Position numbers and translations under genes: made by a program. The notes beneath the pieces were generated by a model, which was given only the letters and a program-made list of their open reading frames with translations, searched no databases and was not told where the DNA came from. 60,344 bases of DNA from Deltaproteobacteria bacterium (GTDB lineage: Bacteria > Myxococcota_A > UBA9160 > UBA6930): positions 1-60,344 of the forward strand of contig JANNDT010000277.1 in NCBI GenBank assembly GCA_031387905.1, in the 5' to 3' direction. Shown piece by piece: positions 21,479 through 34,535 of the stretch (within the stretch, counting starts at the first letter, position 1; every line of letters starts with the position of its first letter).

Positions 21479-22636
21479 TCACGGTTTTGCGCTGCTGACG
21501 ATCCACGTCGAGAAGTACTGCGAGCCGCCGCCGTAGGCGTGCCCGAGCGCCTTTTTCGCGCCGTCCACCTGATGCGCGCCCGCCATGCCGCGCACTTGCA
21601 GCGCGCTCTCGGCAAAGCGAATCAAGCCCGACGCGCCGATCGGGTTCGAGGAGAGCACGCCGCCGCTCATGTTGACCGGGAAGTCGCCTGTTAGGGCCGT
21701 CGCGCCCTCGTAGGTCATCTTCCAGCCTTCGTTGCGCTCGGCGATCAGCATGCCTTCCATCCACATCGGCTCGAACCAGGAGAACGGCACGTAGATCTCG
21801 GCGCAGTCGAGTTCTTTGCGCGGGTTCGTGATGCCGGCTTTCTTGTAGAGCGACTTCGCGTTGTCGAGCGTCGCGCGCGGCATCACTTGGTCGCGTCCCG
21901 AGAAAGACGTCGGCTCGCTGCGCATCTCGGTCGCGTGAATCCACGCCACCTTCCTTGGGCTGCGCTCGGCGATCTTCTCGCGCGCCATCACCATCGCGCA
22001 CGCACCATCCGAAGACGGGCACGTCTCGAGGTACCGCACCGGGTCCCAGAGCATCGGCGAGTTCGCGACCTTCTCGAAGCTGATGTCTTCGAGTTGAATG
22101 TGCGCGTACGGGTTCTTGAGCGCGTTCTGGCGATCCTTCACCGCGACGCGAATGCCGGTGTCCTCCGGCGCTCCCGAGCGCCGAATGTATCCCCTAATGA
22201 GCGGCGCAAAGTAGCCACCGGCGCCTGCGACGGTGGCCACACTGAACGGCAGCGAGATCGAGAGCGCCCAGGTCGCGTTCGACTCGCTCTGTTTCTCGTA
22301 CGCCACGGTGAGCACGCGGTCGTGCACGCCGCTCTGCACGAGGCTCGCCGCGACGATGCCCGTCGAGCCGCCCACGCTGCCGGCGGTGTGCACGCGCAGC
22401 ATCGGCTTGTAGGCGCCGCCGATGGCCTCGGCGAGGAACAGCTCCGGCATCATCACGCCCTCGAACATGTCGGGGGCTTTCCCGATCACGACGGCGTCGA
22501 TGTCCTTCCAGGTGCATTCGGCGTCCGCCAGCGCGCGCTCGGCTGCCTCCCGTAACAAGCCCGCCATCGAGACGTCTTTGCGCCGCGCGTCGTACTTCGT
22601 CTGACCGACCCCAATGACTCCGCACAGTTCGGCCAT
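21479..22636 (-). CDS. Thiolase-like (SCP-x/Ltp-type) protein, 385 aa
   Basis: MAELCGVIGVGQTKYDARRKDVSMAGLLREAAERALADA at the N-terminus and NMSGGVLSSNPIGASG at the C-terminus. The ATG is at 22636. Confidence 0.85.
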   Translation of the reverse strand: MAELCGVIGVGQTKYDARRKDVSMAGLLREAAERALADAECTWKDIDAVVIGKAPDMFEGVMMPELFLAEAIGGAYKPMLRVHTAGSVGGSTGIVAASLVQSGVHDRVLTVAYEKQSESNATWALSISLPFSVATVAGAGGYFAPLIRGYIRRSGAPEDTGIRVAVKDRQNALKNPYAHIQLEDISFEKVANSPMLWDPVRYLETCPSSDGACAMVMAREKIAERSPRKVAWIHATEMRSEPTSFSGRDQVMPRATLDNAKSLYKKAGITNPRKELDCAEIYVPFSWFEPMWMEGMLIAERNEGWKMTYEGATALTGDFPVNMSGGVLSSNPIGASGLIRFAESALQVRGMAGAHQVDGAKKALGHAYGGGSQYFSTWIVSSAKP

Positions 22637-22638
22637 GA

Positions 22639-23694
22639 CTACTTGCCCTCCAGCACGCACACGAGGTTCTGCTGCAGGCAGGGTCCCGAAGTCGCGTGGG
22701 CGACCGCGCGATCGGCGCTGCCGTCCCACACACGTCGCGCCGCTTCGCCGATGCGCGAGAGGCCCACCGCCATCATCGGGTTGCCCGCGAGCGCGCCGCC
22801 CGACGGGTTCACGTTCGTCCTCGCCGACAGCCCGAGTGCGCGCTCCACCAGGATCTCCTGATGCGTGAACGGCGCCGACAGCTCGGCCGCGTCCACCTTG
22901 TCGCGCCACACGCCGGCTTTCTGCGCAGCCATCTCGGCCCCGCGCGAGCGTGTTAGGTCGCGCACGCCCAGATCCATCGGCTCGAGGATGTGCGAGATGC
23001 CCGTGATCCAAGCGGGCCGCTTGCACAGCTGCTTCGCCCGCTCGCCAGCGGCGAGGATGATCCCGCTCGCGCCATCGCTGATTGGCGCGCAGTCGTGCTT
23101 GCGCAGCGGCGAGACGAGGTACGGCTCGCTCAGCAACTTCGCCACCTCGAAATCGCCCTTCAGCTGCGCGTACGGGTTCGCCTTCGCGTTCTTGCGATCG
23201 CGCACCGCGCGCTCGGCCATCTCGCGCTCGCTCACGTGCCCGTTCTCGAGCAGCACGCGCGCCTGCAGCGCCGCGATCGAAACGGCGTCGGGCCAGAGCG
23301 GTGTCGCGGTATACGGGTCGAGCTGCAGCGCCATCGTCATCGGCAGATCGCCCATCGACGGCTTGCCGAAGCCGTACACCAGCGCGATGTCCGCGTAGCC
23401 CATCTGCATCTTCACCCAGGCCTCGTAGAGCGCGAAGGCGCCGTCCATCTCGACGTGCGACTCGGAGACCGGCGGCCAGGCGCCGACTGCGTCGAGCCCG
23501 GAGACGAACGCGAACGCCTGCCCGGCCAAATAATCACTCGAGCCCGAGCACACGAACTGGATCTGGTCGTTCGCGATGCCGACGCTCTTCTTCAACTCCG
23601 CGATCACCGGGACGAGGATTTCGATCTCGTTGCGGTTCGGCTCGCGCCGCATCGAGAGCGACTGCGCGAAGCCGACGACTGCCACGTCGCGCAT
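22639..23694 (-). CDS. Thiolase-like (SCP-x/Ltp-type) protein, 351 aa
   Basis: MRDVAVVGFAQS and NPSGGALAGNPMMAVG. The ATG at 23694 overlaps the stop of the upstream DUF35 gene. Confidence 0.8.
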   Translation of the reverse strand: MRDVAVVGFAQSLSMRREPNRNEIEILVPVIAELKKSVGIANDQIQFVCSGSSDYLAGQAFAFVSGLDAVGAWPPVSESHVEMDGAFALYEAWVKMQMGYADIALVYGFGKPSMGDLPMTMALQLDPYTATPLWPDAVSIAALQARVLLENGHVSEREMAERAVRDRKNAKANPYAQLKGDFEVAKLLSEPYLVSPLRKHDCAPISDGASGIILAAGERAKQLCKRPAWITGISHILEPMDLGVRDLTRSRGAEMAAQKAGVWRDKVDAAELSAPFTHQEILVERALGLSARTNVNPSGGALAGNPMMAVGLSRIGEAARRVWDGSADRAVAHATSGPCLQQNLVCVLEGK

Positions 23695-24200
23695 CAGATG
23701 TGCTCCTTGTACGTCTCGTAGGGCGCGTCCGGCTCGCCGCTCGGCTCGAAGTAGAGAATGTTCGCGACCGAAGTCGTCCACTGTTCGCGCGGTTTCCAGA
23801 CGGCTTTCACGCGCATGCCCATGTGCACGTCTTCGAGCTTGCACTTGAGCAGGTGCATCAGAATCGTGTTCGCGCCGTCGAGCAGAACCTGCGCCGTGAT
23901 GTACGGCAGCTCGAGCGGAATGTTCGCGCTCGGCACGCGCACGATCGAATACGTGACGAGCGTGCCGCAATCCGCCAGCTCGACCGGCTCACCGTCGATC
24001 ACGACGCCGTGCTGCGGACACGAACCACGCGTCGGGAAGTAGACGCGCCCGTCCACCGGGCAGCGCTGCCCCAACAACTTTCCCTGCGCGATCGCGCGCA
24101 GAAAGCGCGATGCGCTCTGCCCGGCCGAGAACGTGTAGTCGAGCTCGATCGGCGTCAGCAGGATTTCCACGGGCCCCAAAGCTTGCGGCTTGTCGCTCAT
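23694..24200 (-). CDS. DUF35 OB-fold / zinc-ribbon protein (168 aa)
   Basis: FLRAIAQGKLLGQRCPVDGRVYFPTRGSCPQHG is the rubredoxin-like knuckle, followed by an OB-fold segment. Confidence 0.8.
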   Translation of the reverse strand: MSDKPQALGPVEILLTPIELDYTFSAGQSASRFLRAIAQGKLLGQRCPVDGRVYFPTRGSCPQHGVVIDGEPVELADCGTLVTYSIVRVPSANIPLELPYITAQVLLDGANTILMHLLKCKLEDVHMGMRVKAVWKPREQWTTSVANILYFEPSGEPDAPYETYKEHI

Positions 24201-24201
24201 C

Positions 24202-24651
24202 TCAAGCCTCCGGCACGAACGCGGTGATGTCGGTGATCGCGCCGACGGTCTCGGCTCGCCAGCGCGCGCGCACGCGCATACCCGTCTTCATTAGGCTCTC
24301 GCTGCCCGCATCGACGACGTGCAGCAGCGGCGTCGCCGCGCCGTCGAGCTGAATCAGTGCGTAGGCGAACGGGTGCGCGAGCGGCTGTTGCTTGCGCGGC
24401 GTGTACACCCACGCCCAGCTCTTGACGACGCCCGCGTCCCTAACAGGCACGAGTTCGGTGAGCGCCTCCGCAGTGTCCGGGTCGTACTCCTTCGGCGGCA
24501 CCATCACGCTGCCGTCCTTGCGCCGCACGCCGAGGATCTGGCGATCGCGCAGCGCTGTGAAAAACTTGCCGAGCACGGGCCCGAGCGAGCGCTTGTAGGT
24601 GTACGAGAGCTTGTGCGGCGCGGTGAGCGCGGGCTCGCTGGGTTGGGTCAT
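24202..24651 (-). CDS. DUF35 OB-fold protein (149 aa)
   Basis: MTQPSEPALTAPHKLSYTYKRSLGPVLGKFFTALRDRQILGVRRKDGSVMVPPKEYDP. The ATG is at 24651. Confidence 0.75.
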   Translation of the reverse strand: MTQPSEPALTAPHKLSYTYKRSLGPVLGKFFTALRDRQILGVRRKDGSVMVPPKEYDPDTAEALTELVPVRDAGVVKSWAWVYTPRKQQPLAHPFAYALIQLDGAATPLLHVVDAGSESLMKTGMRVRARWRAETVGAITDITAFVPEA

Positions 24652-24678
24652 GCGCGGGGCCTCCTGCGGGGAAGGAAG

Positions 24679-24692
24679 TGAAACAGGTTCCA
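24679..24692. promoter_or_regulatory. KstR-type operator match TGAAACAGGTTCCA (TnnAACnnGTTnnA)
   Basis: Full match to all 8 fixed positions, 28 nt upstream of the DUF35 ATG at 24651. Confidence 0.55.
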
Positions 24693-24717
24693 ATTCGCGA
24701 AACAAGCCGCAGCGTTC

Positions 24718-25749
24718 TCAACTCTCGCGCAAATCGGAGACGACCCGCGCGAACACCGCGTCGTGCATCGAGTCCGCCGGCATGCGCAGGCTAATGCCGT
24801 CCGCGCTGCCCGCGTAGCGCGCTCGGATCAGCGCCGCGATTTCGCTGAAGCCCGCGCTCGGCACGAGCACCTCGAGCATCTCGTCGGTGATGACACTCTT
24901 CATGCCCGCCCAGTCGTTCGCGCGCGTCTTTGCGAGCAGCGCGCGGCCCACGTCGCCCCAGCCGTGATGCTCGAGCGTTCCCCAATAAGCGGGCGTCGAA
25001 TAGGTGAAGGCGAGCACCTCGCGGGCGGCCTCGCGTTCGCGCGCGACGCAAGCGGCGTCGGGGCCCGTCGCGACCATCGGATTCGCGATGACTCGAATCG
25101 CGCTCGCCGCGCGGCCCGCCTTGGCCGCGCCCTCCGCGAGCCTCGGCCGCATTTCATCTCTCAGATATGTCGGCGAAGAGTTCGTGGGGTGCGCGATCAC
25201 GCAGTCTGCGACTTCGCCTGCTACGCCGGTCATCAGGGGACCGATCGCGCCCAGCCAGACCGGGATGCGGGCGTGCTCGGGCGGCAGCGCATCCGGCCTG
25301 AAGAACGGCTGCATGCGCGTGAGCGAGTACGACGCGCTCCGGTACGCGAGCGGCTCGCCCGTCTGGAACGCCTCGAAGCACGCGCGCAGCGCGCCGACGT
25401 AATCGCGCATGCGCGCAGCCGGTGCGCTCCACGGCATGCCGAAGCGGCCCTCGACATTGCCTTTGACTTGCGGCCCGAGCCCGATCGCGAAGCGGCCGCC
25501 TGATAACTGCGCGAGCGCCCAGCTGTCCTGCGCCACGAGCATCGGGCTGCGCGCGAACGCGACGATCACGCCCGTAGCGACGCGCAGCCGCGTCGTACTC
25601 GCGAGCGCGAGCGTCGCGGCGGGAATCGCGTCGTACGCCGCCTCGGGCACGACGAGCCCGTCGAAGCCCAAGCGCTCTGCCCGCTGTGCGTGCGCCGCCA
25701 TCCTCGCGAGCGGCATGCGCACATCGTCGACGGAAGCCCAGACTTGCAT
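24718..25749 (-). CDS. LLM-class (luciferase-like) flavin/F420-dependent oxidoreductase
   Basis: 343 aa. AERLGFDGLVVPEA and GRFAIGLGPQVKGNVEGRFGMPW are typical of the LLM TIM-barrel. Confidence 0.85.
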   Translation of the reverse strand: MQVWASVDDVRMPLARMAAHAQRAERLGFDGLVVPEAAYDAIPAATLALASTTRLRVATGVIVAFARSPMLVAQDSWALAQLSGGRFAIGLGPQVKGNVEGRFGMPWSAPAARMRDYVGALRACFEAFQTGEPLAYRSASYSLTRMQPFFRPDALPPEHARIPVWLGAIGPLMTGVAGEVADCVIAHPTNSSPTYLRDEMRPRLAEGAAKAGRAASAIRVIANPMVATGPDAACVAREREAAREVLAFTYSTPAYWGTLEHHGWGDVGRALLAKTRANDWAGMKSVITDEMLEVLVPSAGFSEIAALIRARYAGSADGISLRMPADSMHDAVFARVVSDLRES

Positions 25750-25756
25750 CGGCTTC

Positions 25757-26677
25757 CTACGCCATCGGTAGCGCGAAGGAATCGTCGATCGGCTTCCTCG
25801 TCGCGAAGAACGGGCCGAGCACTTTCTGTAGCTCGTCGACCGTCCACGGCACGTCGTGCTCGTGGTCGAGCGCGGGTTTCGGCGCGGCGTACACGCGCAC
25901 GTGCTTGCCCCACATCTGGATCAGGTTGCCGCTGACGTTCTGCGCGAGCGGCGAGGCGATCCATGCGACCACGGGGCCGATGTGTTCCGGCGCGTAGGTG
26001 TCGAAGCCTTCCGCTGGCGGCTTGTACATCTCCGCCCAGGCCGAGGCCATCGTCATGCGCGTGCGCGCGCGCGGCAAGATCACGTTCGCCGTCGCGCCGA
26101 GGCGCTGGCACTCACGCGCGGCCGATAGTGTTAGGTGCGTGAGCGCCGCCTTCGCCGCTGCGTAATTCGACTGACCGAGGTTGCCCATCATGAACGAGTC
26201 CGATGCAGTGCTGATCAGGCGCCCGTAGACCGGCTCGCCGCCGTTCGCTCTCGAGCGATCGCGCCAGTGAGCCATGGTGTGGCGGATCATGCAGAAGTGG
26301 CCCTTGGCGTGGACGCGCAGCACCGAGTCCCATTGCTCCTCGCTCATCTTCTGGAGCATGCCGTCGCGCGAGAAGCCGGCGTTGTTGACGAGGATGTTGA
26401 GATCGCCGAACGCGTCGACCGCGCTCTTCACGATGCGCTCGGATTGCGTGAAGTCCGCGACGTCGCCGAACGCGGCGATCGCGCGGCCGCCTGCGGCCTC
26501 GATCTCGCGCACGACTTCGCGCGCTGGCGCATCGCTCGTGCCACTGCCGTCGGCATTCGTGCCGAGGTCGTTCACGACCACGGCTGCACCTTGGCGCGCC
26601 AGTTCGAGCGCCTCGATGCGCCCGAGCCCGCCGCCCGCGCCCGTAACAATCGCAACTCTGCCTGCCAGAACCGACAT
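25757..26677 (-). CDS. SDR, MFE-2/Hsd4A-like (R)-3-hydroxyacyl-CoA dehydrogenase type
   Basis: Motifs: GRVAIVTGAGGGLGRIEALELARQGAAVVVNDLG, NNAG, YAAAKAA. The ATG at 26677 gives 306 aa. Confidence 0.85.
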   Translation of the reverse strand: MSVLAGRVAIVTGAGGGLGRIEALELARQGAAVVVNDLGTNADGSGTSDAPAREVVREIEAAGGRAIAAFGDVADFTQSERIVKSAVDAFGDLNILVNNAGFSRDGMLQKMSEEQWDSVLRVHAKGHFCMIRHTMAHWRDRSRANGGEPVYGRLISTASDSFMMGNLGQSNYAAAKAALTHLTLSAARECQRLGATANVILPRARTRMTMASAWAEMYKPPAEGFDTYAPEHIGPVVAWIASPLAQNVSGNLIQMWGKHVRVYAAPKPALDHEHDVPWTVDELQKVLGPFFATRKPIDDSFALPMA

Positions 26678-26703
26678 CTCGATTTCCTCTTTGACTGGTT
26701 GCT

Positions 26704-27885
26704 TCAGATCCGCTCGATCAGCGTGGCCGTGCCGATCGCCGAGCCGCAGCACATCGTGATCAGCGCGCGGCTCTTGCCCGTGCGCTCGAGTTCGTGCAGC
26801 GCGGACACGATCAGTCGCGAGCCGGTCGCGCCAACCGGGTGGCCGAGCGCGATCGCGCCGCCGTTCGGGTTCACGCGCGCGGGGTCGATCTCGGGGAACG
26901 CGCGCTGCCACGCGAGCACCACGGCGGCGAAGGCTTCGTTGCACTCGAACACGTCGACTTCGCGCAAGTCGAGCTTGGTCTTCGCGAGCAACTTGCGCGT
27001 CGCATCGATCGGGCCTTCGAGCAGGAACGACGGATCGCAACCGACGACGACGTCGTGGCGGATGCGCGCGCGCGCGCGCAGGCCATGCGCCTTGGCCTTC
27101 TCGGCGCTCATGTAGAGCAGGCCCGCCGCGCCGTCCGAAACCTGAGAAGAGTTGCCCGCCGTGTGAATGCCGCCGGCCTGCACGGGCTTCAGCGCTGCGA
27201 GGCCCTCGCGCGTCGTCGCGCGGATGCCTTGATCGGTGACGATGCGCTGCGTCGCGCCGGTGGGCTTGCCGTCCTCCCCAACAACTGGCGCCTCGATCGG
27301 CAGAATCTCGCGCGCGAAGTGGCCCGCGGCCGTGGCTCTCGCGGCGAGGTCCTGCGAGCGCAGCGCGAGAGCATCGACGTCGTCGCGCGTGATTCCCCAC
27401 TTCGCGGCGATGCGCTCGATCGCGATGAACTGCGACATCGGCTCGTCCCACGGAAAGCCGGGAGGCAAGAAGAAGCCGGGGCCGTGCATCACGTTGGCGC
27501 CGAGCCCGACGTGGCTCATCAGCTCGATACCGCAGGCGATGCCGCAATCGATCGAGCCGCCCTTGATGAGTGCGCTCACCAGGTTGTTCGCTTGCTGGCC
27601 CGAGCCGCACTGGACGTCCAGCGTGGTGCCCGCGGTGGAGTAGTCGCTCGCGACCGCACCGAGCCAGGCGTGGCGCGCGATGTTATTGGACTGCTCGCCC
27701 GCCTGGGTCACGCAGCCGCCGAAGATCTGCTCGACCTCTCTCGGCTCGATGCCGGCCTTCTCGACCAAGCCGATCTGCAAGCGTCCGAGCAACTGCGCAG
27801 CGTGAAACCCCGAGAGGTCGCCCTTCCCCAGCTTCCCGCGCCCGAGCGGCGTGCGAAGTGCTTCGACGATTACCGCGTCTGCCAT
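26704..27885 (-). CDS. Acetyl-CoA C-acyltransferase (true thiolase, FadA-like)
   Basis: Motifs: LDVQCGSGQQA, NPNGGAIALGHPVGATG, CCGSAIGTA. The ATG at 27885 gives 393 aa. Confidence 0.9.
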   Translation of the reverse strand: MADAVIVEALRTPLGRGKLGKGDLSGFHAAQLLGRLQIGLVEKAGIEPREVEQIFGGCVTQAGEQSNNIARHAWLGAVASDYSTAGTTLDVQCGSGQQANNLVSALIKGGSIDCGIACGIELMSHVGLGANVMHGPGFFLPPGFPWDEPMSQFIAIERIAAKWGITRDDVDALALRSQDLAARATAAGHFAREILPIEAPVVGEDGKPTGATQRIVTDQGIRATTREGLAALKPVQAGGIHTAGNSSQVSDGAAGLLYMSAEKAKAHGLRARARIRHDVVVGCDPSFLLEGPIDATRKLLAKTKLDLREVDVFECNEAFAAVVLAWQRAFPEIDPARVNPNGGAIALGHPVGATGSRLIVSALHELERTGKSRALITMCCGSAIGTATLIERI

Positions 27886-27905
27886 CTCATCCTCCAAGTC
27901 TCCGC

Positions 27906-29075
27906 TCACGCTCTTCCGAGAATCAAGGCGCCGGTCGGAACGCCGACGCCGCTGGTGACGAGCACGTGGTCGGCTCGCGCGGGCTGGTTCGCGGATTGCC
28001 CGCGCACGAGGCGCGCGCCTTCGGCGATGCCGTTCACGCCGTGGATGTAGGCCTCGCTGAGCAGGCCGCCGTGCGTGTTGTTGGGGAGCCGGCCGCCCAC
28101 TTCGAGCGCGCCGCCTTTGATGAAGTCCTTGGCCTCGCCCTTCTTGCAGAAGCCGAACGATTCGAGCTGGATCAGCACCTCGGGCGTGAACGCGTCGTAA
28201 AGAATCGTCGCGTCGATGTCCTTGGGGCCGAGCTTGGCCTGCGCGTAGACCTGTTTGCCCGCGAGCTCCATCTCGGGCAGCGCCGCCATGTCGGGGCGAT
28301 AGAAGCTCGTCATTTGCTCCTGGCCCGCGGCCGAAGCCTGCGCGACCCCGCGAATCAGCGCGGCCGGCTGCTGGAGATCGCGCGCGCGCTCGGGCGTGGT
28401 GATGAGGAGCGCGCAGCCGCCGTCGGTCTCCTGGCAGCAGTCGTAGAGCCGCAGCGGCTCCGTCACCCAGCGCGCCGCGAAGTACTGCTCGCGCGTGAGC
28501 GGCTGCTGATAGAACGCGGCGTTCGGGTTCGTGACCGCGTGCTTGCGCGTCGCGAGCGCGATCGTCGCGAGGTCGTCGCAGGTCGCGCCGTACTCGTGCA
28601 TGTAACGCTGCGCGCAGAGCGCCACCCACGAGGCGGGCGTCAACATCCCGAACGGCATGTACCAGGACCAATGAATTAGGTCGCTGGTGATGATGTTGCC
28701 GCTGACGCCTTGCCCCATGCGCTGGCCCGAGCGCCCGTTCAGCGCGCGGTAGACGACGACGTACTTCGCGGCGCCCGTCGCCACCGCCATCGCGGCTTGG
28801 TGGACGAGCCCGACGCAGGCGCCGCCGCCGTACGCAATGCGGCTGAACAGCGTCATCTCGCCAATGCCGACCGTGCGCGCCACTTCGACTTCGTCGCTCG
28901 AGTCCATCAGGAACGTGACGAGTCCGTCGACATCGCGAGGCGAGAGGCCGGCGTCGTCGATCGCCGCGCGCACGGCCTGCGAGGCGAGGCTCAACTCCGA
29001 GACACCCGAGTTCTTCGAGTACTTCGTCTGCCCGATGCCCGCGATTGCGGCTTCGTTGTTCAGCGTGATCGGCAT
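27906..29075 (-). CDS. Thiolase-like lipid-transfer protein (Ltp2-like candidate aldolase)
   Basis: MPITLNNEAAIAGIGQTKYSKNSG and NTHGGLLSEAYIHGVNG. It is 389 aa and lies directly after the MaoC pair. Confidence 0.8.
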   Translation of the reverse strand: MPITLNNEAAIAGIGQTKYSKNSGVSELSLASQAVRAAIDDAGLSPRDVDGLVTFLMDSSDEVEVARTVGIGEMTLFSRIAYGGGACVGLVHQAAMAVATGAAKYVVVYRALNGRSGQRMGQGVSGNIITSDLIHWSWYMPFGMLTPASWVALCAQRYMHEYGATCDDLATIALATRKHAVTNPNAAFYQQPLTREQYFAARWVTEPLRLYDCCQETDGGCALLITTPERARDLQQPAALIRGVAQASAAGQEQMTSFYRPDMAALPEMELAGKQVYAQAKLGPKDIDATILYDAFTPEVLIQLESFGFCKKGEAKDFIKGGALEVGGRLPNNTHGGLLSEAYIHGVNGIAEGARLVRGQSANQPARADHVLVTSGVGVPTGALILGRA

Positions 29076-29085
29076 GCGCGGCTCC

Positions 29086-29499
29086 CTAAGCGCTCGGCAA
29101 CTGCACGCGCACTCTGGCGGTGACGTGGGTGCCCCAAGCGTTGTTGCCGGCCACTTCGATCTCGACGAGCTCGGGCGTCGCCGAGAGCACTCTGCCGCGC
29201 AGTCTGAGCGTGTCGCCCGGCAAGTTCGGACCGCCGAGCTTCAGCCAGACGCCCTTCACCACGGCGTTCGGGCCGCTCCAATCCGTGACGTAGCGCCCGA
29301 CCAGTCCTTTGGTGGTGAGGATGTTCATGAACATGTTGGGGAGGCCTTGCGCCTGCGCGGCGCCGGGGTCGTGGTGCACGGGCGTGTAGTCGCGCGAGGC
29401 GATCGCGCCGCCGGCGACGAGCGTCGCGGTGATCGGCAGATCGAGCGGCGGCAGCGCATCGCCGGGCTTCACGTCCGAGCTGCGAAGCGTCGGCTTCAT
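29086..29499 (-). CDS. MaoC-like hotdog hydratase, small subunit (ChsH1-like, 137 aa)
   Basis: GAIASRDYTPVHHDPGAAQAQGLPNMFMNILT. An ATGA overlap joins it to the upstream dehydrogenase stop. Confidence 0.8.
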   Translation of the reverse strand: MKPTLRSSDVKPGDALPPLDLPITATLVAGGAIASRDYTPVHHDPGAAQAQGLPNMFMNILTTKGLVGRYVTDWSGPNAVVKGVWLKLGGPNLPGDTLRLRGRVLSATPELVEIEVAGNNAWGTHVTARVRVQLPSA

Positions 29500-30629
29500 G
29501 CGTTCGCAAGGCCATGCGCGGCGAGGTCGGCGCCGAGTGCGGCGAGCTGCACCGAGGCGCCGCCGAGGGCGAGCTCGAGGCTCTTCGACCATAAGAAGTA
29601 GCGCTGGATCGGATAGTCGATGTCGGAGCCGATCCCGCCGTGCAGGTGCAGGGCGGCGTTCACGATGCGCGAGCCGCCCTCTGATGCCCAGATTTTCGCG
29701 ACGCGCGCTTCGCGCTGCGCGGGCAAGCCCTCCGCGAGGCGGTAGGCCGCGCGCCAGAGCGTCCAGCGCATCGCCTCGAGATCGATGAACGCGTCGGCCT
29801 CGCGATGCTGCACCGCCTGGAACGATCCGATCGGCACGCCGAACTGGACGCGTTCGCGCGTGTACTGCGCCGTGATCGCGAGCGCACGGTCGCACACGCC
29901 GGCTTGCAGCGCGGCGAGCGCCGTCAGCGCGCGCGGCTCGAGCCAGCGCAGAATCGCAGCGCCATCGGCGGGCAGCCGGGCTTCCTCGCTGACTCGCACA
30001 GCGCGGAGTGTTAGGTCGAACAGCGGCTCGCCGCTCGAGACGCGCTTCCCTTCGAGCGACACGCCGCTGCCCTGCGTCTCGACCACGAACACCGCGACGC
30101 CGCGCTCGGTGCTCGCGGGCACGAGCACCGCGCTAGCCGCGCGCGCGTGCGGCACGAAGCGCTTTGCGCCGTCGATCACCCAGTCGGCGCCTTCGCGGCG
30201 CGCGCGCGTCGCCGGTGCGAGCGCGTTCGCGGAGCCCGCGTCGTCGAGCGCCGCAGTCAGGATCGCCTCGCCCCTCGCGACGCGCGGCAGCCAGCGCGCT
30301 CGCTGCCCCGCGCTAGCGAACTCGGCGAGTGGCAGCGCGCCGAGCACGAGCGCGGCGAACGCCGCATTCGGCGCGGCTGCGCGGCCGATCTCTTCGAGCA
30401 GCACGCACAGCTCGCGAAAGCCCATGCCCATGCCGCCGTGCGCTTCGGGCAGCGCGATCCCCAACAAGTTGGCGGCGGCGAGTCGCTGCCAGAGCGCGGC
30501 ATCGATCCAGTCCTCGGTCTTTTCGGCCGCGCGCAGCCGCTCCTGTGTCGCTTCTTGCTCGAGAATCCCGCGCGCGAGGTCGCGCACGCTCTGCTGCTCT
30601 TCCGAGTAGGCAAAATCCATGGTTGTCAT
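29496..30629 (-). CDS. Acyl-CoA dehydrogenase family protein (377 aa)
   Basis: MDFAYSEEQQSVRDLARGILEQE and HGGIGSDIDYPIQRYFLWS. It overlaps the stop of the upstream gene. Confidence 0.9.
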   Translation of the reverse strand: MTTMDFAYSEEQQSVRDLARGILEQEATQERLRAAEKTEDWIDAALWQRLAAANLLGIALPEAHGGMGMGFRELCVLLEEIGRAAAPNAAFAALVLGALPLAEFASAGQRARWLPRVARGEAILTAALDDAGSANALAPATRARREGADWVIDGAKRFVPHARAASAVLVPASTERGVAVFVVETQGSGVSLEGKRVSSGEPLFDLTLRAVRVSEEARLPADGAAILRWLEPRALTALAALQAGVCDRALAITAQYTRERVQFGVPIGSFQAVQHREADAFIDLEAMRWTLWRAAYRLAEGLPAQREARVAKIWASEGGSRIVNAALHLHGGIGSDIDYPIQRYFLWSKSLELALGGASVQLAALGADLAAHGLANA

Positions 30630-31612
30630 GCCGCCGGCTTGAAGAGCGGCAGCTTGAAGCCGTCTTCATCGCTGTGAATGAAGCACTCGACGCGCATGCC
30701 GATCTTCACGTGCTTGGGATCGCAGCCGACGAGGTTCGAGAGGATGCGCTCGCCCTCTTCGAGGTCGACCAGCGCGGCGACGATCGGGAAGTCGTAACCC
30801 GGAAACTGCGGGTAGTGGATCACGGTGAAGCTGTGCAGTGTCCCGCGTCCGCTCGCCGCGATCGAATCCCAGGCGAGCGAGCCGCACGCGTCGCACATCG
30901 GGCGCGGTGGGTGGCGCAGCTTGTTACAAGCTTTGCAGCGCTGGATCGGCAGGTGGTTCTTCTCGGCGACCTCGGTCCACCACCAGCCGTTGTCGTGGCC
31001 CATCGGCGGCTTCAGGCGCGACGGCTTTGCGGCCTGCGTCGCACCGCCGCTCGCGGCGGCTGCCGCGCGCGGCGCTTCCTTCGGGATGAACTTCAGCACG
31101 CGGAACGTCTGCCAGCCGACCTCCGCGCCCGCTCGATCCGTGAAGCGCGTGCGCGTGGTGATGAAGAAGCCGACGCCCGCGCCGGTCGCCTTCTCTTCGC
31201 TGATCTTCTCGATCACGGTCTCGGCCGTGACCGCGTCTCCCGGCTTCAGGTAGCGGTGGAACGCCTGCTCGGTGTCGGTCCCTAACACGCCCGTGTAGCC
31301 CGCGTCGCTGAGCAGCTTGTGTAGGCGATGCTCTTCGTTCTGCGGCGTGTCGTAGCCCTTGTGCATCTCCCAGCCCTGCATCGTCCAGGCGTCGAGCATC
31401 ATCGGCGGCGCAACGAGCGTGCCGAACACGCTCTCCTTCGCGGCGGCCGGGTCGAGGTACACCGGGTTCGCATCGCCCATCGCATCGCACCACTGGCGAA
31501 TCATCGGCTCGTTCACCGCGTCGCGGCCCGTGAACTTCGGGCCAATCGGCTTGCCGACGAACGCGCGGATGCTCGTCTCGAGCGCTTGTTTTTGTCCCGC
31601 CGTGAGCGGCAT
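30626..31612 (-). CDS. MaoC N-terminal-type hydratase fused to a C-terminal DUF35 domain (ChsH2-like, 328 aa)
   Basis: The N-half has DAVNEPMIRQWCDAMGDANPVYLDP. The C-half has LPIQRCKACNKLRHPPRPMCDACGS plus an OB-fold. The ATG is at 31612. Confidence 0.8.
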   Translation of the reverse strand: MPLTAGQKQALETSIRAFVGKPIGPKFTGRDAVNEPMIRQWCDAMGDANPVYLDPAAAKESVFGTLVAPPMMLDAWTMQGWEMHKGYDTPQNEEHRLHKLLSDAGYTGVLGTDTEQAFHRYLKPGDAVTAETVIEKISEEKATGAGVGFFITTRTRFTDRAGAEVGWQTFRVLKFIPKEAPRAAAAASGGATQAAKPSRLKPPMGHDNGWWWTEVAEKNHLPIQRCKACNKLRHPPRPMCDACGSLAWDSIAASGRGTLHSFTVIHYPQFPGYDFPIVAALVDLEEGERILSNLVGCDPKHVKIGMRVECFIHSDEDGFKLPLFKPAA

Positions 31613-31623
31613 GTCGCTCTCCT

Positions 31624-32808
31624 CTACCTGCGCGAGCGCGGCTGGCCGAGGCCCGCCTGCGCGATGATGTCGCGCTGCACTTCGTTCACGCCGCCGCCGT
31701 AGGTGTTCACCATGGCGAGGCGGTAAGCGCCTTCCATTAGGCCGTCGGTCACCGAACCGGGCTCGCCGCGGCGCGCGATGCCGAGGGACTCGGTGATCTC
31801 GAGCAGCTGGCGATAACAATCGATCACCATCTCGGTGCCGAATACTTTCACGGCGCTGGCGTCGGCCATACCCGGCGTGCCCTGATCGATCAACCACGCG
31901 CTTCGCCAATTCAGCACTTTCAGCGCTTCGAGCTTCGCGTAGACGCGCGCGAGGTTGGCCTGCACCCACGGCACTCCCGCAACGAGCCCGCCGCCTGGCC
32001 GCTCCGTGGTGCGCGCCCACCCGACGACTTCCTCGTACACTTTTTCGAGCGAGGCCGGCATCGCGAGCGTGATGCGCTCGAGGTTCAGCTGGCCGGTGAT
32101 CAGGGTCCAGCCGCCGTTCACCGGGCCAACCGTGTTCGTGAGCGGAACGCGCACGTCTTCGTAGTAGGTGACGTTGGTGCGCTCACCGCCGAGCGTGGTG
32201 ATGGGCGTCGAGCTGAAGCCTTTCGCCGAGTTCGGCACGAGGATGATCGAGATGCCCTTGTGCTTCGGCACCTCGGAATCGGTGCGCGCCGCGAGCCAGA
32301 TGTAGTCGGACTCGTGACCGTGGGTGGTGAAGACCTTCTGGCCGTTGATCACCCACGCGTCGCCGTCGCGAACTGCGCGCGTCTTCAGCGACGCCAGATC
32401 GGTGCCGGCGGACGGCTCGGAGTAGCCGATCCCGAACAGCATCTCGCCGTTGCGAATCTTCCCTAAGAAGTGACTTTTCTGTTCGTCGCTCCCGTACTTC
32501 ATCAGCATCGGGCCGACCGTGTTCACCGTAATCAGCGGTAGCGGCGCGCGCGCGCGCCAGGTCTCGTCCCAGAAGATGAACTGCTCGAGGTGGCTGCGGC
32601 CTTGGCCGCCCCATTCGCGCGGCCAGCCGATCGTCAGCCAGCCGTCCTTGCCCATGCGGCCCATCGCTTCGCGAAACGCCGGGCCGCCGAGTTGGTCCCA
32701 CTCCGCGTCGAGCCGGGCGCGCAGGTCGCCTTCTGCGAACAGCTCCTTGTAGTAGGAGCGGATCTGCGCGCGCAGCGACTCTTGTTCGGGGGAGAGATCG
32801 ATCCGCAT
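31624..32808 (-). CDS. Acyl-CoA dehydrogenase family protein (394 aa)
   Basis: Motifs: MRIDLSPEQESLRAQI, GYSEPSAGTDLASLKT, GGGVNEVQRDIIA. The start is taken as the ATG at 32808, with an alternative TTG at 32826. Confidence 0.9.
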   Translation of the reverse strand: MRIDLSPEQESLRAQIRSYYKELFAEGDLRARLDAEWDQLGGPAFREAMGRMGKDGWLTIGWPREWGGQGRSHLEQFIFWDETWRARAPLPLITVNTVGPMLMKYGSDEQKSHFLGKIRNGEMLFGIGYSEPSAGTDLASLKTRAVRDGDAWVINGQKVFTTHGHESDYIWLAARTDSEVPKHKGISIILVPNSAKGFSSTPITTLGGERTNVTYYEDVRVPLTNTVGPVNGGWTLITGQLNLERITLAMPASLEKVYEEVVGWARTTERPGGGLVAGVPWVQANLARVYAKLEALKVLNWRSAWLIDQGTPGMADASAVKVFGTEMVIDCYRQLLEITESLGIARRGEPGSVTDGLMEGAYRLAMVNTYGGGVNEVQRDIIAQAGLGQPRSRR

Positions 32809-32836
32809 CGGGGGGCCACCGGGCAATTCACGTTTT

Positions 32837-32850
32837 TGAAACGTGTTCTA
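32837..32850. promoter_or_regulatory. KstR-type operator match TGAAACGTGTTCTA
   Basis: Full match to TnnAACnnGTTnnA, 29 nt upstream of the ATG at 32808. It lies between the TetR stop and the first dehydrogenase gene. Confidence 0.55.
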
Positions 32851-32911
32851 GTTTCGGATTATGCCCACGACGCGCCGTCGTGTCGAGAACGAAAGCCCTC
32901 GAACGCGCGGC

Positions 32912-33556
32912 TCAGCCGCCCTCGAGTACCAGCTCGATCGTCTCCTGCATGCGCTCCATCACGGTTGCGATCGGGTGGAGCCCGCTCGCCCAGCCGATCA
33001 GCGAGGAGAACCAGACGTGCTGGAGCACGCGCGCGATCAGGCGTTCGCGCTCGCTCCCGACGAGTTCGGAGAGCGGCGTCGCTGCGTCCGCGGGCTCGCC
33101 GCGCAGCGCCGCGACGATCATGCGCGACATGCGCAGGTGAAACGCGGCTTGCTGCACCGCGCTCGCGGCCTCGCTCGCCGCGATCGCGCGCAGCACGGCG
33201 CGCGCGAAGTTCGGTCGCCGCGTGAGCCCGCGCGTCGCGCGCGCGAACAGCTCGACCAGGCGCTCCGTCGCGCGCGCCGATTCGGGCGGGCGTGCGGCGA
33301 GGATCCGCAGCAGCTGCTCGTTGTCCTCGTTCACCGCGAAGAGCAGCACGTCTTCCTTGCTGCGGAAGTACTTGTAGAGCGTGCCGAGTGCGACGCCGGA
33401 GGCGTCGGCCACATCGCGCAGCCGCACCGCGTCGAAGCCGCCCGACTCCGCGAGCGCAATCGCCGCGTCGACGATGCGCCGGATGCGCTTCAGCTGCGAA
33501 ACCGCGAGCCGCGGCGGCGAGAACTCGCTCACGGGCTCAGCTGCGTCGGTGGGCAT
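32912..33556 (-). CDS. TetR/AcrR family transcriptional regulator (KstR-like by context)
   Basis: HTH region RRIVDAAIALAESGGFDAVRLRDVADASGVALGTLYKYFRSKEDVL. Confidence 0.9.
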   Translation of the reverse strand: MPTDAAEPVSEFSPPRLAVSQLKRIRRIVDAAIALAESGGFDAVRLRDVADASGVALGTLYKYFRSKEDVLLFAVNEDNEQLLRILAARPPESARATERLVELFARATRGLTRRPNFARAVLRAIAASEAASAVQQAAFHLRMSRMIVAALRGEPADAATPLSELVGSERERLIARVLQHVWFSSLIGWASGLHPIATVMERMQETIELVLEGG

Positions 33557-33564
33557 TTCGGAAT

Positions 33565-33578
33565 TAGAACATGTTGCA
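33565..33578. promoter_or_regulatory. KstR-type operator match TAGAACATGTTGCA
   Basis: Full match to TnnAACnnGTTnnA, 9 nt upstream of the TetR ATG at 33556. This is a candidate autoregulatory site. Confidence 0.55.
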
Positions 33579-33599: not shown

Positions 33600-33620
33600 C
33601 GCGGGGACGTTCCATAACTT
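33600..33620. repeat. Left terminal inverted repeat of the RAYT unit
   Basis: Read directly. It is followed by a tandem ATAACTTC ATAACTTC duplication. Confidence 0.8.
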
Positions 33621-34450: not shown

Positions 34451-34535
34451 CGTGATTCGCCGCGGGACCGGTGGGGGATGAGGGCGACGCTAGCTGCGAG
34501 GCGTGAACCTGTCCGCGCGGGAGAGTTAGTTTGGA

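What the first reader, a model, noticed from the sequence alone, without database searches (positions are those of the whole stretch)
25757..32808. igr-like steroid/branched side-chain module with an interleaved dehydrogenase-hydratase gene order
Seen, on the minus strand in order: ACAD (394 aa), MaoC-N+DUF35 fusion (328 aa), ACAD (377 aa), small MaoC hotdog (137 aa), thiolase-like protein (389 aa), true thiolase (393 aa), MFE-2/Hsd4A-like SDR (306 aa). Several junctions are 4-nt overlaps.

Established knowledge: in Mycobacterium tuberculosis three igr gene products remove the last propionyl unit of the cholesterol side chain. These are ChsE1-ChsE2 (heteromeric ACAD), ChsH1-ChsH2 (MaoC pair, with ChsH2 carrying a DUF35 domain that docks Ltp2) and the Ltp2 retro-aldolase. 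The domain architectures and sizes here match them closely. FadA5-like and Hsd4A-like enzymes serve the earlier beta-oxidation cycles.

Inference: this is a complete side-chain degradation kit for a sterol, bile-acid or other alpha-branched or alicyclic acyl-CoA. The gene order is novel (ACAD-hydratase-ACAD-hydratase). No ring-opening genes (Ksh, KstD, Hsa) are in the window, so the true substrate is open.
Basis: partly seen in the sequence, partly recalled or inferred. Interest (0 to 1): 0.65.

Follow-up and report, generated by a model that had tools for sequence, protein, structure and literature searches.

The report
Sterol side-chain degradation cluster in Myxococcota
The seven genes are real and are a clear relative of the well-studied bacterial machinery that cuts the side chain off cholesterol-like sterols. 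Their gene order is not new; the modest news is that the cluster sits in uncultured sediment Myxococcota, a phylum not yet listed among steroid degraders.

Summary
Observation confirmed. Seven co-directional minus-strand genes at 25757-32808 have exactly the stated sizes and domains. Only two of the six junctions are 4-nt overlaps.

Interpretation partly supported. The proteins are close homologues of characterised steroid side-chain enzymes:
- Ltp2: E=1.4e-150 to the T. curvata structure.
- FadA5: passes NCBI's equivalog cutoff for steroid 3-ketoacyl-CoA thiolase.
- ChsH1/ChsH2: His/Asp dyad in ChsH1, His-to-Tyr in ChsH2, and a DUF35 tail on ChsH2.
- Two-subunit (alpha/beta) ACAD pair with the catalytic Glu only in alpha.

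A KstR-type operator (TAGAACACGTTTCA) lies 29 nt upstream of the first gene. It is identical to the box between fadA5 and cyp125 in Mycobacterium. Two further boxes sit before a KstR-like repressor gene and a downstream DUF35/Ltp4/Ltp3 unit.

The real unit is about 19 kb (14405-33578). It also holds a ChsE4/5-like ACAD pair, an EchA19-like hydratase, an acyl-CoA ligase, Ltp3/Ltp4-like proteins and an F420-type LLM.

The "novel" interleaved order is not novel. It occurs in 73 of 80 non-mycobacterial actinobacterial loci, including close relatives of T. curvata, whose enzymes have been crystallised. Comamonas is also interleaved.

The host is an uncultured freshwater-sediment Myxococcota lineage. 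No ring-opening genes are in the window. Verdict: a new member of a known kind.

The parts
33565..33578 (.). KstR-type operator (TnnAACnnGTTnnA), 8 nt upstream of the repressor gene's ATG
   Evidence: 3 exact matches in the window against 0.12 expected. One search gives the start codon; a box at the same place before the TetR gene in related Myxococcota loci.
32912..33556 (-). KstR-like TetR-family repressor (214 aa)
   Evidence: Pfam TetR_N + TetR_C_20. The best NCBIfam hit is 'cholesterol catabolism transcriptional regulator KstR', E=4.6e-32, but 111 bits is below the 280-bit cutoff.
32837..32850 (.). KstR-type operator, 29 nt upstream of the first ACAD gene; reads TAGAACACGTTTCA on the coding (minus) strand
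   Evidence: The same 14-mer stands upstream of ACAD_A in L001, L003-L005, L007 and L015, and in the fadA5/cyp125 intergenic region of the Mycobacterium loci L132 and L144.
31624..32808 (-). ACAD_A: alpha (catalytic) subunit of a heteromeric steroid-type acyl-CoA dehydrogenase, 394 aa
   Evidence: PDB phmmer: Mtb ChsE4 (4x28_A) 1.1e-122 and Tcur3483 (6wy8_B) 1.1e-121. The Glu equivalent to ChsE4 Glu247 is kept. Forms a Myxococcota-specific clade, 98% bootstrap.
30626..31612 (-). ChsH2-like non-catalytic MaoC subunit fused to a zinc-ribbon/OB (DUF35) domain, 328 aa
   Evidence: Pfam FAS1_DH_region + zf-ChsH2 + OB_ChsH2_C. PDB: T. curvata ChsH2-DUF35 8.3e-34 and the Mtb hydratase 1.2e-30. The dyad His is replaced by Tyr (DANPVY), as in ChsH2 (PMC11321319).
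29496..30629 (-). ACAD_B: beta (non-catalytic) ACAD subunit, 377 aa
   Evidence: PDB: Tcur3481 2.1e-84 and ChsE5 1.1e-57. It lacks the catalytic Glu, like ChsE5 and Tcur3481.
29086..29499 (-). ChsH1-like catalytic MaoC hydratase subunit, 137 aa
   Evidence: PDB: Mtb hydratase small subunit (4wnb_B / 4w78_B) about 2e-28. The Asp-x4-His dyad is present (RDYTPVH).
27906..29075 (-). Ltp2-like retro-aldolase (thiolase fold), 389 aa
   Evidence: PDB: T. curvata Ltp2 (6ok1_A) 1.4e-150. NCBIfam PRK07855 594 bits, cutoff 469. Tyr293 and Tyr343 align with the catalytic Tyr294 and Tyr344. The motif is YDAF instead of YDHF.
26704..27885 (-). FadA5-like steroid 3-ketoacyl-CoA thiolase, 393 aa
   Evidence: PDB: Mtb FadA5 2.3e-126. 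NCBIfam equivalog 'steroid 3-ketoacyl-CoA thiolase' 538 bits, cutoff 515. Cys93 and the GHP and CCGS motifs are present.
25757..26677 (-). Hsd4A/ChsB1-like (MFE-2-type) 3-hydroxyacyl-CoA dehydrogenase SDR, 306 aa
   Evidence: PDB: yeast MFE-2 dehydrogenase 2et6 4e-75 and mycobacterial SDRs 3qlj and 4kzp. NCBIfam PRK07791 338 bits, just below the 373 cutoff. The FadA5-SDR adjacency is conserved.
24718..25749 (-). F420-type luciferase-like (LLM) oxidoreductase, 343 aa; last gene of the first transcription unit; role unknown
   Evidence: Pfam Bac_luciferase. NCBIfam TIGR03617 315.7 bits, cutoff 278. Lies 7 nt after the SDR gene.
24679..24692 (.). KstR-type operator, 28 nt upstream of the first DUF35 gene
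   Evidence: Conserved before the DUF35 gene in L003, L004 and L007.
24202..24651 (-). stand-alone DUF35/OB-fold protein a (149 aa)
   Evidence: Pfam OB_ChsH2_C 1.4e-10. Start codon.
23694..24200 (-). stand-alone DUF35 protein b (168 aa), zinc ribbon + OB fold
   Evidence: Pfam OB_ChsH2_C 1.1e-12 and zf-ChsH2 4.4e-5.
22639..23694 (-). Ltp4-like thiolase-fold protein (351 aa)
   Evidence: NCBIfam PRK07937 'lipid-transfer protein' 519.9 bits, cutoff 419.
21479..22636 (-). Ltp3-like thiolase-fold protein (385 aa)
   Evidence: NCBIfam PRK08313 654 bits, cutoff 514. Pfam Thiolase_C_1.
19762..21312 (-). acyl-CoA ligase (516 aa), candidate steroid-acid CoA ligase
   Evidence: Pfam AMP-binding + AMP-binding_C. 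NCBIfam hits are all below cutoff: FadD4-like 490 bits, steroid-24-oyl-CoA synthetase 213 bits.
19072..19749 (-). Nudix hydrolase (225 aa), 12 nt after the ligase gene; role unknown
   Evidence: Pfam NUDIX. Gap.
18053..18856 (+). EchA19-like crotonase-type enoyl-CoA hydratase (267 aa)
   Evidence: NCBIfam PRK07799 334 bits, cutoff 316. EchA19 equivalog 331.5 bits, below the 400 cutoff.
15623..16798 (-). ACAD_C: ChsE4-like alpha subunit (391 aa)
   Evidence: 56% identical to Mtb ChsE4. Groups with ChsE4 at 85% bootstrap. Catalytic Glu present.
14405..15505 (-). ACAD_D: ChsE5-like beta subunit (366 aa)
   Evidence: 39% identical to ChsE5 and 44% to Tcur3481. Lacks the catalytic Glu. Adjacent to ACAD_C.

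Best explanation
This is a KstR-type-regulated gene cluster for breaking down the C17 side chain of sterols (cholesterol or phytosterol type). It spans about 14.4-33.6 kb of the window and belongs to an uncultured freshwater-sediment Myxococcota bacterium.

Inferred mechanism, by homology to the Mycobacterium, Rhodococcus and Thermomonospora pathway:
1. A TetR repressor (32912-33556) binds three TnnAACnnGTTnnA operators. A steroid-derived ligand releases it.
2. The steroid acid is activated by the CoA ligase (19762-21312).
3. The early beta-oxidation cycles use the ChsE4/5-like ACAD_C/D, the EchA19-like hydratase, the Hsd4A/ChsB1-like dehydrogenase and the FadA5-like thiolase.
4. The two DUF35 proteins plus the Ltp4/Ltp3-like pair probably act as aldol-lyases for C24-branched side chains.
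5. The last, alpha-branched C3 unit cannot be removed thiolytically. ACAD_A/B introduces the C17-C20 double bond.
6. The ChsH1/ChsH2 heteromer hydrates that bond. ChsH1 carries the His/Asp dyad and ChsH2 is the steroid-binding subunit.
7. Ltp2 docks on the ChsH2 DUF35 tail and releases propionyl-CoA and a 17-keto steroid by retro-aldol cleavage, using Tyr293 and Tyr343.

Shown here: gene content, homology, conserved catalytic residues, operators and synteny. Inferred: every activity, the assignment of ACAD_A/B to the C3 step (by position only), and the effector.
For: Homology to characterised proteins:
- Ltp2 1.4e-150 and above the NCBIfam cutoff.
- ChsH2 domains 8e-34 and 1e-30.
- ChsH1 2e-28.
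- FadA5 2e-126 and above the equivalog cutoff.
- ACADs against ChsE4/5 and Tcur3483/3481.

Diagnostic residues (roles from PMC11321319 and PMC8399759):
- Asp/His dyad in ChsH1, His-to-Tyr in ChsH2.
- Catalytic Glu only in the alpha ACAD subunits.
- Ltp2 keeps both catalytic Tyr and is not Sal-like: no YDCY motif, no Gln at the second Tyr (PMC12329534).

Regulation:
- Three exact KstR-type boxes against 0.12 expected. All three sit just upstream of start codons.
- They are conserved in position across Myxococcota loci.
- The box is identical in sequence to the one in the Mycobacterium fadA5/cyp125 intergenic region.

Extended gene set: Ltp3/Ltp4-like proteins above NCBIfam cutoffs, EchA19-like, two DUF35 proteins and an LLM. 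From my own knowledge, this mirrors Mtb Rv3520c-Rv3523, echA19 and fadD19.

Synteny: the A-H2-B-H1-Ltp2-FadA5-SDR order is conserved in 21-23 Myxococcota-set loci, down to about 55% identity.
Against: - The window has no ring-opening genes (Ksh, KstD, Hsa), no Cyp125 orthologue and no Mce4-type sterol importer. The P450 at 40032-41354 is a generic CYP107-like enzyme, only 28% identical to Mycobacterium Cyp125.
- ACAD_A/B could not be placed with ChsE1/2 or with ChsE4/5 (bootstrap 15-45%). Its role in the C3 step rests on gene position alone.
- The oxyanion-hole His of the Ltp2 YDHF motif is Ala here.
- The repressor scores below the KstR model cutoff, and the SDR and CoA ligase score below their specific cutoffs.
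- No transcript data were found.
- Host taxonomy rests on MAG labels, and a few of those are inconsistent ('Spirochaetales').
Confidence: 0.8

Rival explanations
1. The cluster degrades bile-acid-type (C5) side chains, as in cholate-degrading Proteobacteria and the Rhodococcus cas genes, rather than C8-C10 sterol side chains.
For: - The nearest Ltp2 relatives outside the Myxococcota set are gamma- and beta-proteobacterial: 65-70% identity, with the same YDAF motif.
- T. curvata, whose interleaved ACAD is the closest characterised one for ACAD_B, is described as a bile-acid degrader (PMC8399759).
- No C26-hydroxylase orthologue is in the window.
Against: - There is no Shy/Sal-type pair. The hydratase is heteromeric with an inactive ChsH2. 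The aldolase keeps the second Tyr and matches Sal (9myr_A) at only 1.8e-35, against 1.4e-150 for Ltp2.
- A FadA5-type thiolase, a ChsE4-like ACAD (85% bootstrap), an EchA19-like hydratase and Ltp3/Ltp4-like proteins are hallmarks of the sterol route.
- The operator is of the cholesterol KstR type.
Confidence: 0.1
2. The enzymes act on a non-steroid alpha-branched or alicyclic acyl-CoA (hopanoid or other isoprenoid side chain, or an aromatic-succinate-type substrate). The resemblance to steroid enzymes is only family-level.
For: - DUF35/thiolase-like pairs also serve benzoylsuccinyl-CoA thiolase and PhlABC.
- No ring-degradation genes are nearby.
- ACAD_A/B forms its own clade.
- Sediments are rich in hopanoids (my own knowledge).
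Against: - The matches to steroid-specific proteins are far stronger than to BbsAB or PhlBC: 1e-150 against 1e-31 for the thiolase-like protein, and 8e-34 against 3e-5 for DUF35.
- FadA5 passes a steroid-specific equivalog model.
- The steroid-type ChsH1/ChsH2 division of labour is kept.
- The KstR boxes are identical to the mycobacterial ones.
Confidence: 0.06
3. The cluster only trims side chains, either of environmental sterols or of the organism's own sterols. It would yield C19/C22 steroids without mineralising the rings, because the host lacks a ring-cleavage pathway.
For: - No Ksh, KstD or Hsa homologue was found in the 60-kb window, nor in the +/-10 kb flanks of 47 related loci when probed with ORFs from one Mycobacterium and three other actinobacterial loci.
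- Uncultured Myxococcota carry sterol-biosynthesis genes (PMC13277303).
Against: - Absence from flanks says little. In many degraders the ring genes lie elsewhere in the genome.
- Whole MAGs could not be searched with these tools.
Confidence: 0.2

Closest known systems
Thermomonospora curvata Tcur3483-ChsH2-Tcur3481-ChsH1-Ltp2 locus (structures 6WY8, 6OK1) and its equivalents in Streptosporangiales, Saccharopolyspora and Streptomyces
   Same: - Identical gene order: ACAD alpha, ChsH2(MaoC+DUF35), ACAD beta, ChsH1, Ltp2. Found in 73 of 80 loci, shown directly in T. catenispora L048.
- Same domain architectures.
- A FadA5-like and an SDR gene lie a few kb downstream.
- The T. curvata ACAD prefers C3 side chains (PMC8399759).
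   Different: - Only 40-60% identity.
- Ltp2 has YDAF here, not YDHF.
- Here FadA5, the SDR and the LLM are fused into the same operon.
- KstR-type boxes are present here but were not found in the five actinobacterial loci scanned.
- The host is a diderm Myxococcota bacterium.
Mycobacterium tuberculosis igr operon (cyp125-chsE1-chsE2-chsH2-chsH1-ltp2) with divergent fadA5, KstR regulon
   Same: - Same five functions.
- Identical KstR operator sequence (TAGAACACGTTTCA).
- FadA5 56%, Ltp2 56-57% and ChsH1 43-46% identical to orthologues in close Mycobacterium relatives.
   Different: - Mycobacterial order is not interleaved: beta, alpha, H2, H1, Ltp2 in 76 of 80 loci.
- cyp125 is part of the mycobacterial operon and absent here.
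- ChsE1 is only about 30% identical to ACAD_B or ACAD_D.
- M. tuberculosis itself was not returned by the scan; congeners were used.
Comamonas testosteroni TA441 ORF40-44 (ChsH2-ChsE1-ChsH1-Ltp2-ChsE2)
   Same: - Genetically proven C3 (propionyl) removal by the same five proteins.
- Dehydrogenase and hydratase genes are also interleaved (PMC12502768).
- Proteobacterial Ltp2 homologues share the YDAF motif and are the closest outside the Myxococcota set, 65-70%.
   Different: - Different permutation of the five genes.
- Embedded in a 120-kb cluster with ring-cleavage genes.
- Acts on bile acids whose C5 step uses Shy/Sal, which are absent here.
Mtb Rv3520c-Rv3523 (LLM, DUF35 protein, ltp4, ltp3) and Rhodococcus ltp3/ltp4
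   Same: LLM + DUF35 + two thiolase-like proteins in a row. The comparison with Mtb and the role in C24-branched sterol side chains come from my own knowledge.
   Different: - There are two separate DUF35 genes here.
- The LLM belongs to the TIGR03617 subfamily, not the Rv3520c subfamily.

Membership tests
ChsH1-ChsH2-Ltp2 (igr-type) hydratase/retro-aldolase | ChsH2 = MaoC-like N-domain fused to a zinc-ribbon + OB-fold DUF35 domain | tested here: met
   Pfam FAS1_DH_region/MaoC + zf-ChsH2 + OB_ChsH2_C on one 328-aa protein. PDB matches to both halves.
ChsH1-ChsH2-Ltp2 (igr-type) hydratase/retro-aldolase | Catalytic Asp/His dyad only in ChsH1; His replaced by Tyr in ChsH2 (PMC11321319) | tested here: met
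   ChsH1-like has RDYTPVH. ChsH2-like has GDANPVY.
ChsH1-ChsH2-Ltp2 (igr-type) hydratase/retro-aldolase | Ltp2 catalytic pair Tyr294 / Tyr344 (T. curvata numbering; PMC12329534) | tested here: met
   Tyr293 and Tyr343 align with them.
ChsH1-ChsH2-Ltp2 (igr-type) hydratase/retro-aldolase | YDHF motif with the oxyanion-hole His296 | tested here: not met
   The motif is YDAF in the window and in 41 of 47 Myxococcota and proteobacterial sequences. All 157 actinobacterial and mycobacterial sequences have YDHF. Replacing this His in TcLtp2 cost only 14-fold in efficiency (PMC12329534), so this is a variant, not a disqualifier.
ChsH1-ChsH2-Ltp2 (igr-type) hydratase/retro-aldolase | [quoted passage not shown] | not testable with these tools
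   Needs protein biochemistry.
alpha2beta2 steroid acyl-CoA dehydrogenases (ChsE1-E2, ChsE4-E5, Tcur3481-3483) | Two different ACAD subunits, with the catalytic Glu only in one of them | tested here: met
   Glu at the ChsE4 Glu247 column in ACAD_A and ACAD_C. Ala or Thr in ACAD_B and ACAD_D, as in ChsE5 and Tcur3481.
alpha2beta2 steroid acyl-CoA dehydrogenases (ChsE1-E2, ChsE4-E5, Tcur3481-3483) | Orthology of ACAD_A/B with the C3-specific ChsE1-E2/Tcur type | tested here: inconclusive
   NJ bootstrap for the alpha subunit: ACAD_A clade with ChsE4 clade 45%, with ChsE2/Tcur3483 clade 15%. The beta tree is unresolved. ACAD_C groups with ChsE4 at 85%.
FadA5 steroid 3-ketoacyl-CoA thiolase | Passes NCBIfam equivalog NF005889; Cys/His/Cys catalytic residues | tested here: met
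   538.2 bits against a 515 cutoff. Cys93, GHP and CCGS motifs present. 2.3e-126 to Mtb FadA5.
KstR regulon | TnnAACnnGTTnnA operators in front of the regulated genes and of the repressor gene | tested here: met
   Three exact sites against 0.12 expected, all upstream of start codons, conserved in relatives.
KstR regulon | Repressor is a KstR equivalog | tested here: not met
   KstR is the best NCBIfam hit, but at 111 bits against a 280-bit cutoff. It is a KstR-like TetR, not an equivalog.
Complete aerobic 9,10-seco steroid catabolic pathway | KshAB, KstD, HsaA-D and IpdAB present | tested here: not met
   None in the window (Pfam on all large ORFs). None in the flanks of the 47 related loci when probed with actinobacterial flank ORFs. 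Whole genomes could not be searched.

The most novel reading that the evidence does not exclude
Uncultured sediment Myxococcota would be a third, previously unlisted phylum of sterol degraders. They carry a KstR-controlled side-chain pathway with two distinctive features:
- the C3-step dehydrogenase (ACAD_A/B) is a lineage-specific clade, neither ChsE1/2 nor ChsE4/5;
- the aldolase uses a YDAF active site.

They may only cut side chains and release C19 steroids into sediments, rather than mineralising the rings.
Probability: 0.2. Interest if true: 0.6.

Novelty: new member of a known kind. Interest (0 to 1): 0.38.

Why it matters
Reviews and surveys in the held library state that steroid-degradation genes occur only in Actinobacteria and in alpha-, beta- and gamma-Proteobacteria (PMC5790920, PMC8399759). 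I found no paper linking Myxococcota to these genes.

This cluster recurs in dozens of Myxococcota MAGs and in sediment metagenomes from at least ten studies. If it is functional, an abundant sediment lineage takes part in sterol turnover. That bears on carbon cycling, the fate of faecal and plant sterol markers, and steroid pollutant removal.

The enzymes themselves are ordinary relatives of well-studied ones. The gene order advertised as novel is common.

Tried and rejected
1. An early tblastn 'best query' labelling suggested that actinobacterial and mycobacterial igr ACADs correspond to the window's second pair (ACAD_C/D), not ACAD_A/B. Pairwise identities and bootstrapped NJ trees showed the margin is noise: only 'ACAD_C with ChsE4' (85%) and 'ACAD_A clade monophyletic' (98%) hold. 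I dropped the paralogue-replacement idea as unproven.

2. P450 40032-41354 as a Cyp125 orthologue: rejected. Best PDB hits are CYP107-type vitamin D hydroxylases. It is 28% identical to Mycobacterium Cyp125 and is separated from the cluster by unrelated genes.

3. The CoA-transferase at 9645-10940 as the alpha-methylacyl-CoA racemase of the pathway: only generic family III hits. Left out of the parts list.

4. Ring-gene search: ORFs from Mycobacterium and actinobacterial flanks found nothing beyond the core genes in 47 related loci. Neighbours of the paralogous ChsH2-ChsH1-Ltp2-only loci include a classical Rieske oxygenase and an NMO-fold protein, but no KshA.

5. The look-up of encoding contigs for two window proteins: not on record.

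6. RNA runs: none. Rfam and tRNA scans: nothing.

7. T. curvata and M. tuberculosis genomes themselves were not returned by the scans. Closest congeners were used.

8. The paper on the 'key glycine' of Tcur3483 is not held, so that specificity marker could not be mapped.

Full report
**Observation**

The window is 67-70% G+C throughout, with no compositional break at the locus. On the minus strand between 25757 and 32808 there are seven ATG-initiated ORFs of exactly the reported lengths: 394, 328, 377, 137, 389, 393 and 306 aa.

Pfam gives:
- ACAD N/M/C domains for the first and third;
- FAS1/MaoC dehydratase + zf-ChsH2 + OB_ChsH2_C for the second;
- MaoC for the fourth;
- Thiolase_C_1 with a weak Thiolase_N for the fifth;
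- full Thiolase_N/C for the sixth;
- adh_short for the seventh.

Junction gaps are 11, -4, -4, 10, 20 and 26 nt. Two junctions, not 'several', are 4-nt overlaps.

**What the proteins are**

Sequence searches against solved structures give very strong and specific matches:
- Thiolase-like protein to the T. curvata aldolase Ltp2: 1.4e-150. The bile-acid aldolase Sal (9myr_A) scores only 1.8e-35, and benzoylsuccinyl-CoA thiolase 4.8e-31.
- The fusion protein: C-terminal half to T. curvata ChsH2-DUF35 (8.3e-34), N-terminal half to the Mtb ChsH hydratase (1.2e-30).
- Small MaoC protein to the small Mtb hydratase subunit: about 2e-28.
- Thiolase to Mtb FadA5: 2.3e-126.
- SDR to the MFE-2 dehydrogenase domain and mycobacterial SDRs.
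- The two ACADs to Mtb ChsE4/ChsE5 and T. curvata Tcur3483/Tcur3481.

NCBIfam places the thiolase above the curated cutoff of the equivalog 'steroid 3-ketoacyl-CoA thiolase' (538 against 515). It places the aldolase above the Ltp2-type 'lipid-transfer protein' model (594 against 469).

Diagnostic residues agree:
- The small MaoC keeps the Asp/His dyad, while the fusion protein has Tyr in place of the His. This is exactly the ChsH1/ChsH2 division of labour (PMC11321319).
- The Glu equivalent to ChsE4 Glu247 is present in ACAD_A and absent in ACAD_B. This is the hallmark of heterotetrameric steroid ACADs (PMC8399759).
- Ltp2 keeps both catalytic tyrosines, Tyr293 and Tyr343 (roles from PMC12329534).
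- One deviation: the YDHF motif is YDAF. That variant is shared by 41 of 47 Myxococcota-set sequences, including gamma- and beta-proteobacterial ones. All 157 actinobacterial and mycobacterial sequences have YDHF.

**The unit is larger than reported**

Immediately downstream on the same strand lie:
- an F420-type LLM oxidoreductase (TIGR03617, above cutoff);
- two stand-alone DUF35 proteins;
- an Ltp4-like and an Ltp3-like thiolase-fold protein (both above NCBIfam cutoffs);
- an acyl-CoA ligase and a Nudix protein.

Further on are a divergent EchA19-like crotonase and a second alpha/beta ACAD pair, ACAD_C/D. ACAD_C is 56% identical to Mtb ChsE4 and groups with it at 85% bootstrap.

Upstream is a TetR gene whose best NCBIfam hit is KstR, though below its cutoff.

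So the early-cycle enzymes and the ligase that the seven-gene 'kit' lacks are supplied within 14.4-25.7 kb of the same window.

**Regulation**

The KstR operator consensus TnnAACnnGTTnnA (from my own knowledge of the mycobacterial regulon) occurs three times exactly in 60 kb, against 0.12 expected. Allowing one mismatch adds nothing significant.

The sites lie:
- 29 nt upstream of the ACAD_A start;
- 8 nt upstream of the repressor start;
- 28 nt upstream of the first DUF35 gene.

On the coding strand the first site reads TAGAACACGTTTCA. This is the same 14-mer found in the fadA5/cyp125 intergenic region of the Mycobacterium loci L132 and L144. Boxes occupy the same three positions in related Myxococcota loci.

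This is the strongest contextual evidence that the substrate is a sterol-type steroid. It defines three transcription units: the repressor, ACAD_A to LLM, and DUF35a to Nudix.

**Host and distribution**

A scan of species-representative genomes with the ChsH2-like protein returned 47 loci. Nearly all are from MAGs labelled Myxococcota or Deltaproteobacteria, with 85-91% identity at best. They include a 3.0-Mb contig and a closed 3.67-Mb chromosome. No cultured organism appears.

The window also carries RND efflux genes typical of diderms.

Near-identical DNA is found in freshwater and other sediment metagenomes from at least ten studies. No RNA runs were found.

The order ACAD_A-ChsH2-ACAD_B-ChsH1-Ltp2-FadA5-SDR is kept in 21-23 of these loci, down to about 55% identity.

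**Is the gene order novel? No**

- A scan seeded with the T. curvata DUF35 sequence returned 80 actinobacterial loci (Thermomonospora, Microbispora, Actinomadura, Nonomuraea, Saccharopolyspora, Streptomyces and others). Of these, 73 have the same interleaved order: alpha, ChsH2, beta, ChsH1, Ltp2.
- In T. catenispora the interleaved ACADs are 91% and 82% identical to the crystallised Tcur3483 and Tcur3481. The locus-tag numbering of those proteins already implies a gene between them.
- That ACAD prefers C3 over C5 side chains (PMC8399759).
- C. testosteroni ORF40-44 (ChsH2-ChsE1-ChsH1-Ltp2-ChsE2) is likewise interleaved and genetically proven (PMC12502768).
- Only the mycobacterial arrangement (beta, alpha, H2, H1, Ltp2; 76 of 80 loci) is non-interleaved.

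**Which ACAD does which step?**

NJ trees with 100 bootstraps show:
- The igr-linked Myxococcota alpha subunits form their own clade (98%).
- All steroid-type alpha subunits form one family (100%).
- The branching order of the ACAD_A, ChsE4 and ChsE2/Tcur3483 clades is unresolved (45, 15 and 13%).
- The beta-subunit tree is no better.

So ACAD_C/D is the likely ChsE4/5 equivalent. ACAD_A/B is assigned to the C3 step by position and by elimination, not by orthology.

**Mechanism**

The best-supported model is the canonical sterol side-chain pathway described under 'best explanation'. The steps are CoA activation, two thiolytic beta-oxidation cycles, aldol-lyases for C24-branched chains, and finally dehydrogenation, hydration and retro-aldol removal of the alpha-branched propionyl unit. 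All of it is under a KstR-like repressor. Every activity is inferred by homology; none was measured.

**What remains open**

No Ksh, KstD or Hsa genes, no Cyp125 orthologue and no sterol importer occur in the window. None occur in the flanks of related loci.

A relative (L041) does have a Cyp125-like P450 (41% identity) behind a KstR box.

**Novelty and verdict**

The machinery is a new member of a known kind. It has minor variants: YDAF in Ltp2, a clade-specific ACAD pair, FadA5, the SDR and the LLM fused into the igr-type operon, and an F420-type LLM.

The only noteworthy point is taxonomic and ecological. [quoted passage not shown] I found no report for Myxococcota.

Noticed in passing
window 57640-59393 (-), 59726-60344 (-): A DUF2063 protein plus an MbnB/TglH/ChrH (DUF692) enzyme (338 bits). 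This is the gene pair typical of RiPP (bufferin/methanobactin-like) peptide modification. It lies next to nitrile hydratase beta and alpha genes; the alpha gene is cut by the window end. No precursor peptide was looked for.
   Followed up: no
window 33620-34489 (-): An IS200/Y1-transposase-like protein with a DnaA-C-type HTH sits between the aminotransferase/SDR genes and the KstR-like gene. It is syntenic in L001, L003 and L005 but only 50-56% identical, while its neighbours are 78-94% identical. It looks like a domesticated or fast-evolving gene rather than a recent insertion.
   Followed up: partly
window 27906-29075; loci L001-L047: The Ltp2 oxyanion-hole motif YDHF is YDAF in Myxococcota and in gamma- and beta-proteobacterial homologues (41 of 47). 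It is invariably YDHF in 157 actinobacterial and mycobacterial sequences. This is a clean lineage marker with a possible effect on catalysis.
   Followed up: yes
L015 5988-13719; L012 and L042 (same MAG, JAPYTP01): Some Myxococcota MAGs carry two igr-like sets. The second set has a YDHF-type Ltp2 and only 37-57% identity to the window's proteins, which suggests a separate, actinobacterial-like origin.
   Followed up: partly
L012, L016-L018, L023, L026, L030, L034, L035 (flanks of ChsH2-ChsH1-Ltp2-only loci): A second locus type has no ACADs. Its conserved neighbours are an alkyl-sulfatase-like metallo-beta-lactamase, a classical Rieske oxygenase alpha subunit, an NMO-fold (IpdC-like) protein, an amidohydrolase and MacB/ABC/HlyD transport genes. 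These may act on sulfated or otherwise different steroids.
   Followed up: partly
L041 20054-20946: A Cyp125-like P450 (41% identical to Mycobacterium Cyp125 over 272 aa, cut by the locus end) is preceded by a KstR-type box and lies next to the same cluster in a related MAG. The window's own P450 (40032-41354) is not of this type.
   Followed up: partly
window 24718-25749 (-): An F420-dependent-type LLM oxidoreductase (TIGR03617, above cutoff) is embedded in the operon of a Myxococcota genome. Whether the host makes F420 is unknown.
   Followed up: no
window 16929-17735 (-): A 268-aa ORF with coding-like GC3 but no Pfam hit lies between ACAD_C and the EchA19-like gene. The region has a slight G+C dip (0.637).
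   Followed up: no
window 50246-53971 (+) and 54000-56000: A 1,200-aa adenylate-cyclase/AAA/TPR regulator is followed by the lowest-G+C stretch of the window (0.617), which holds a PhoD-like phosphatase ORF (54017-54997).
   Followed up: no
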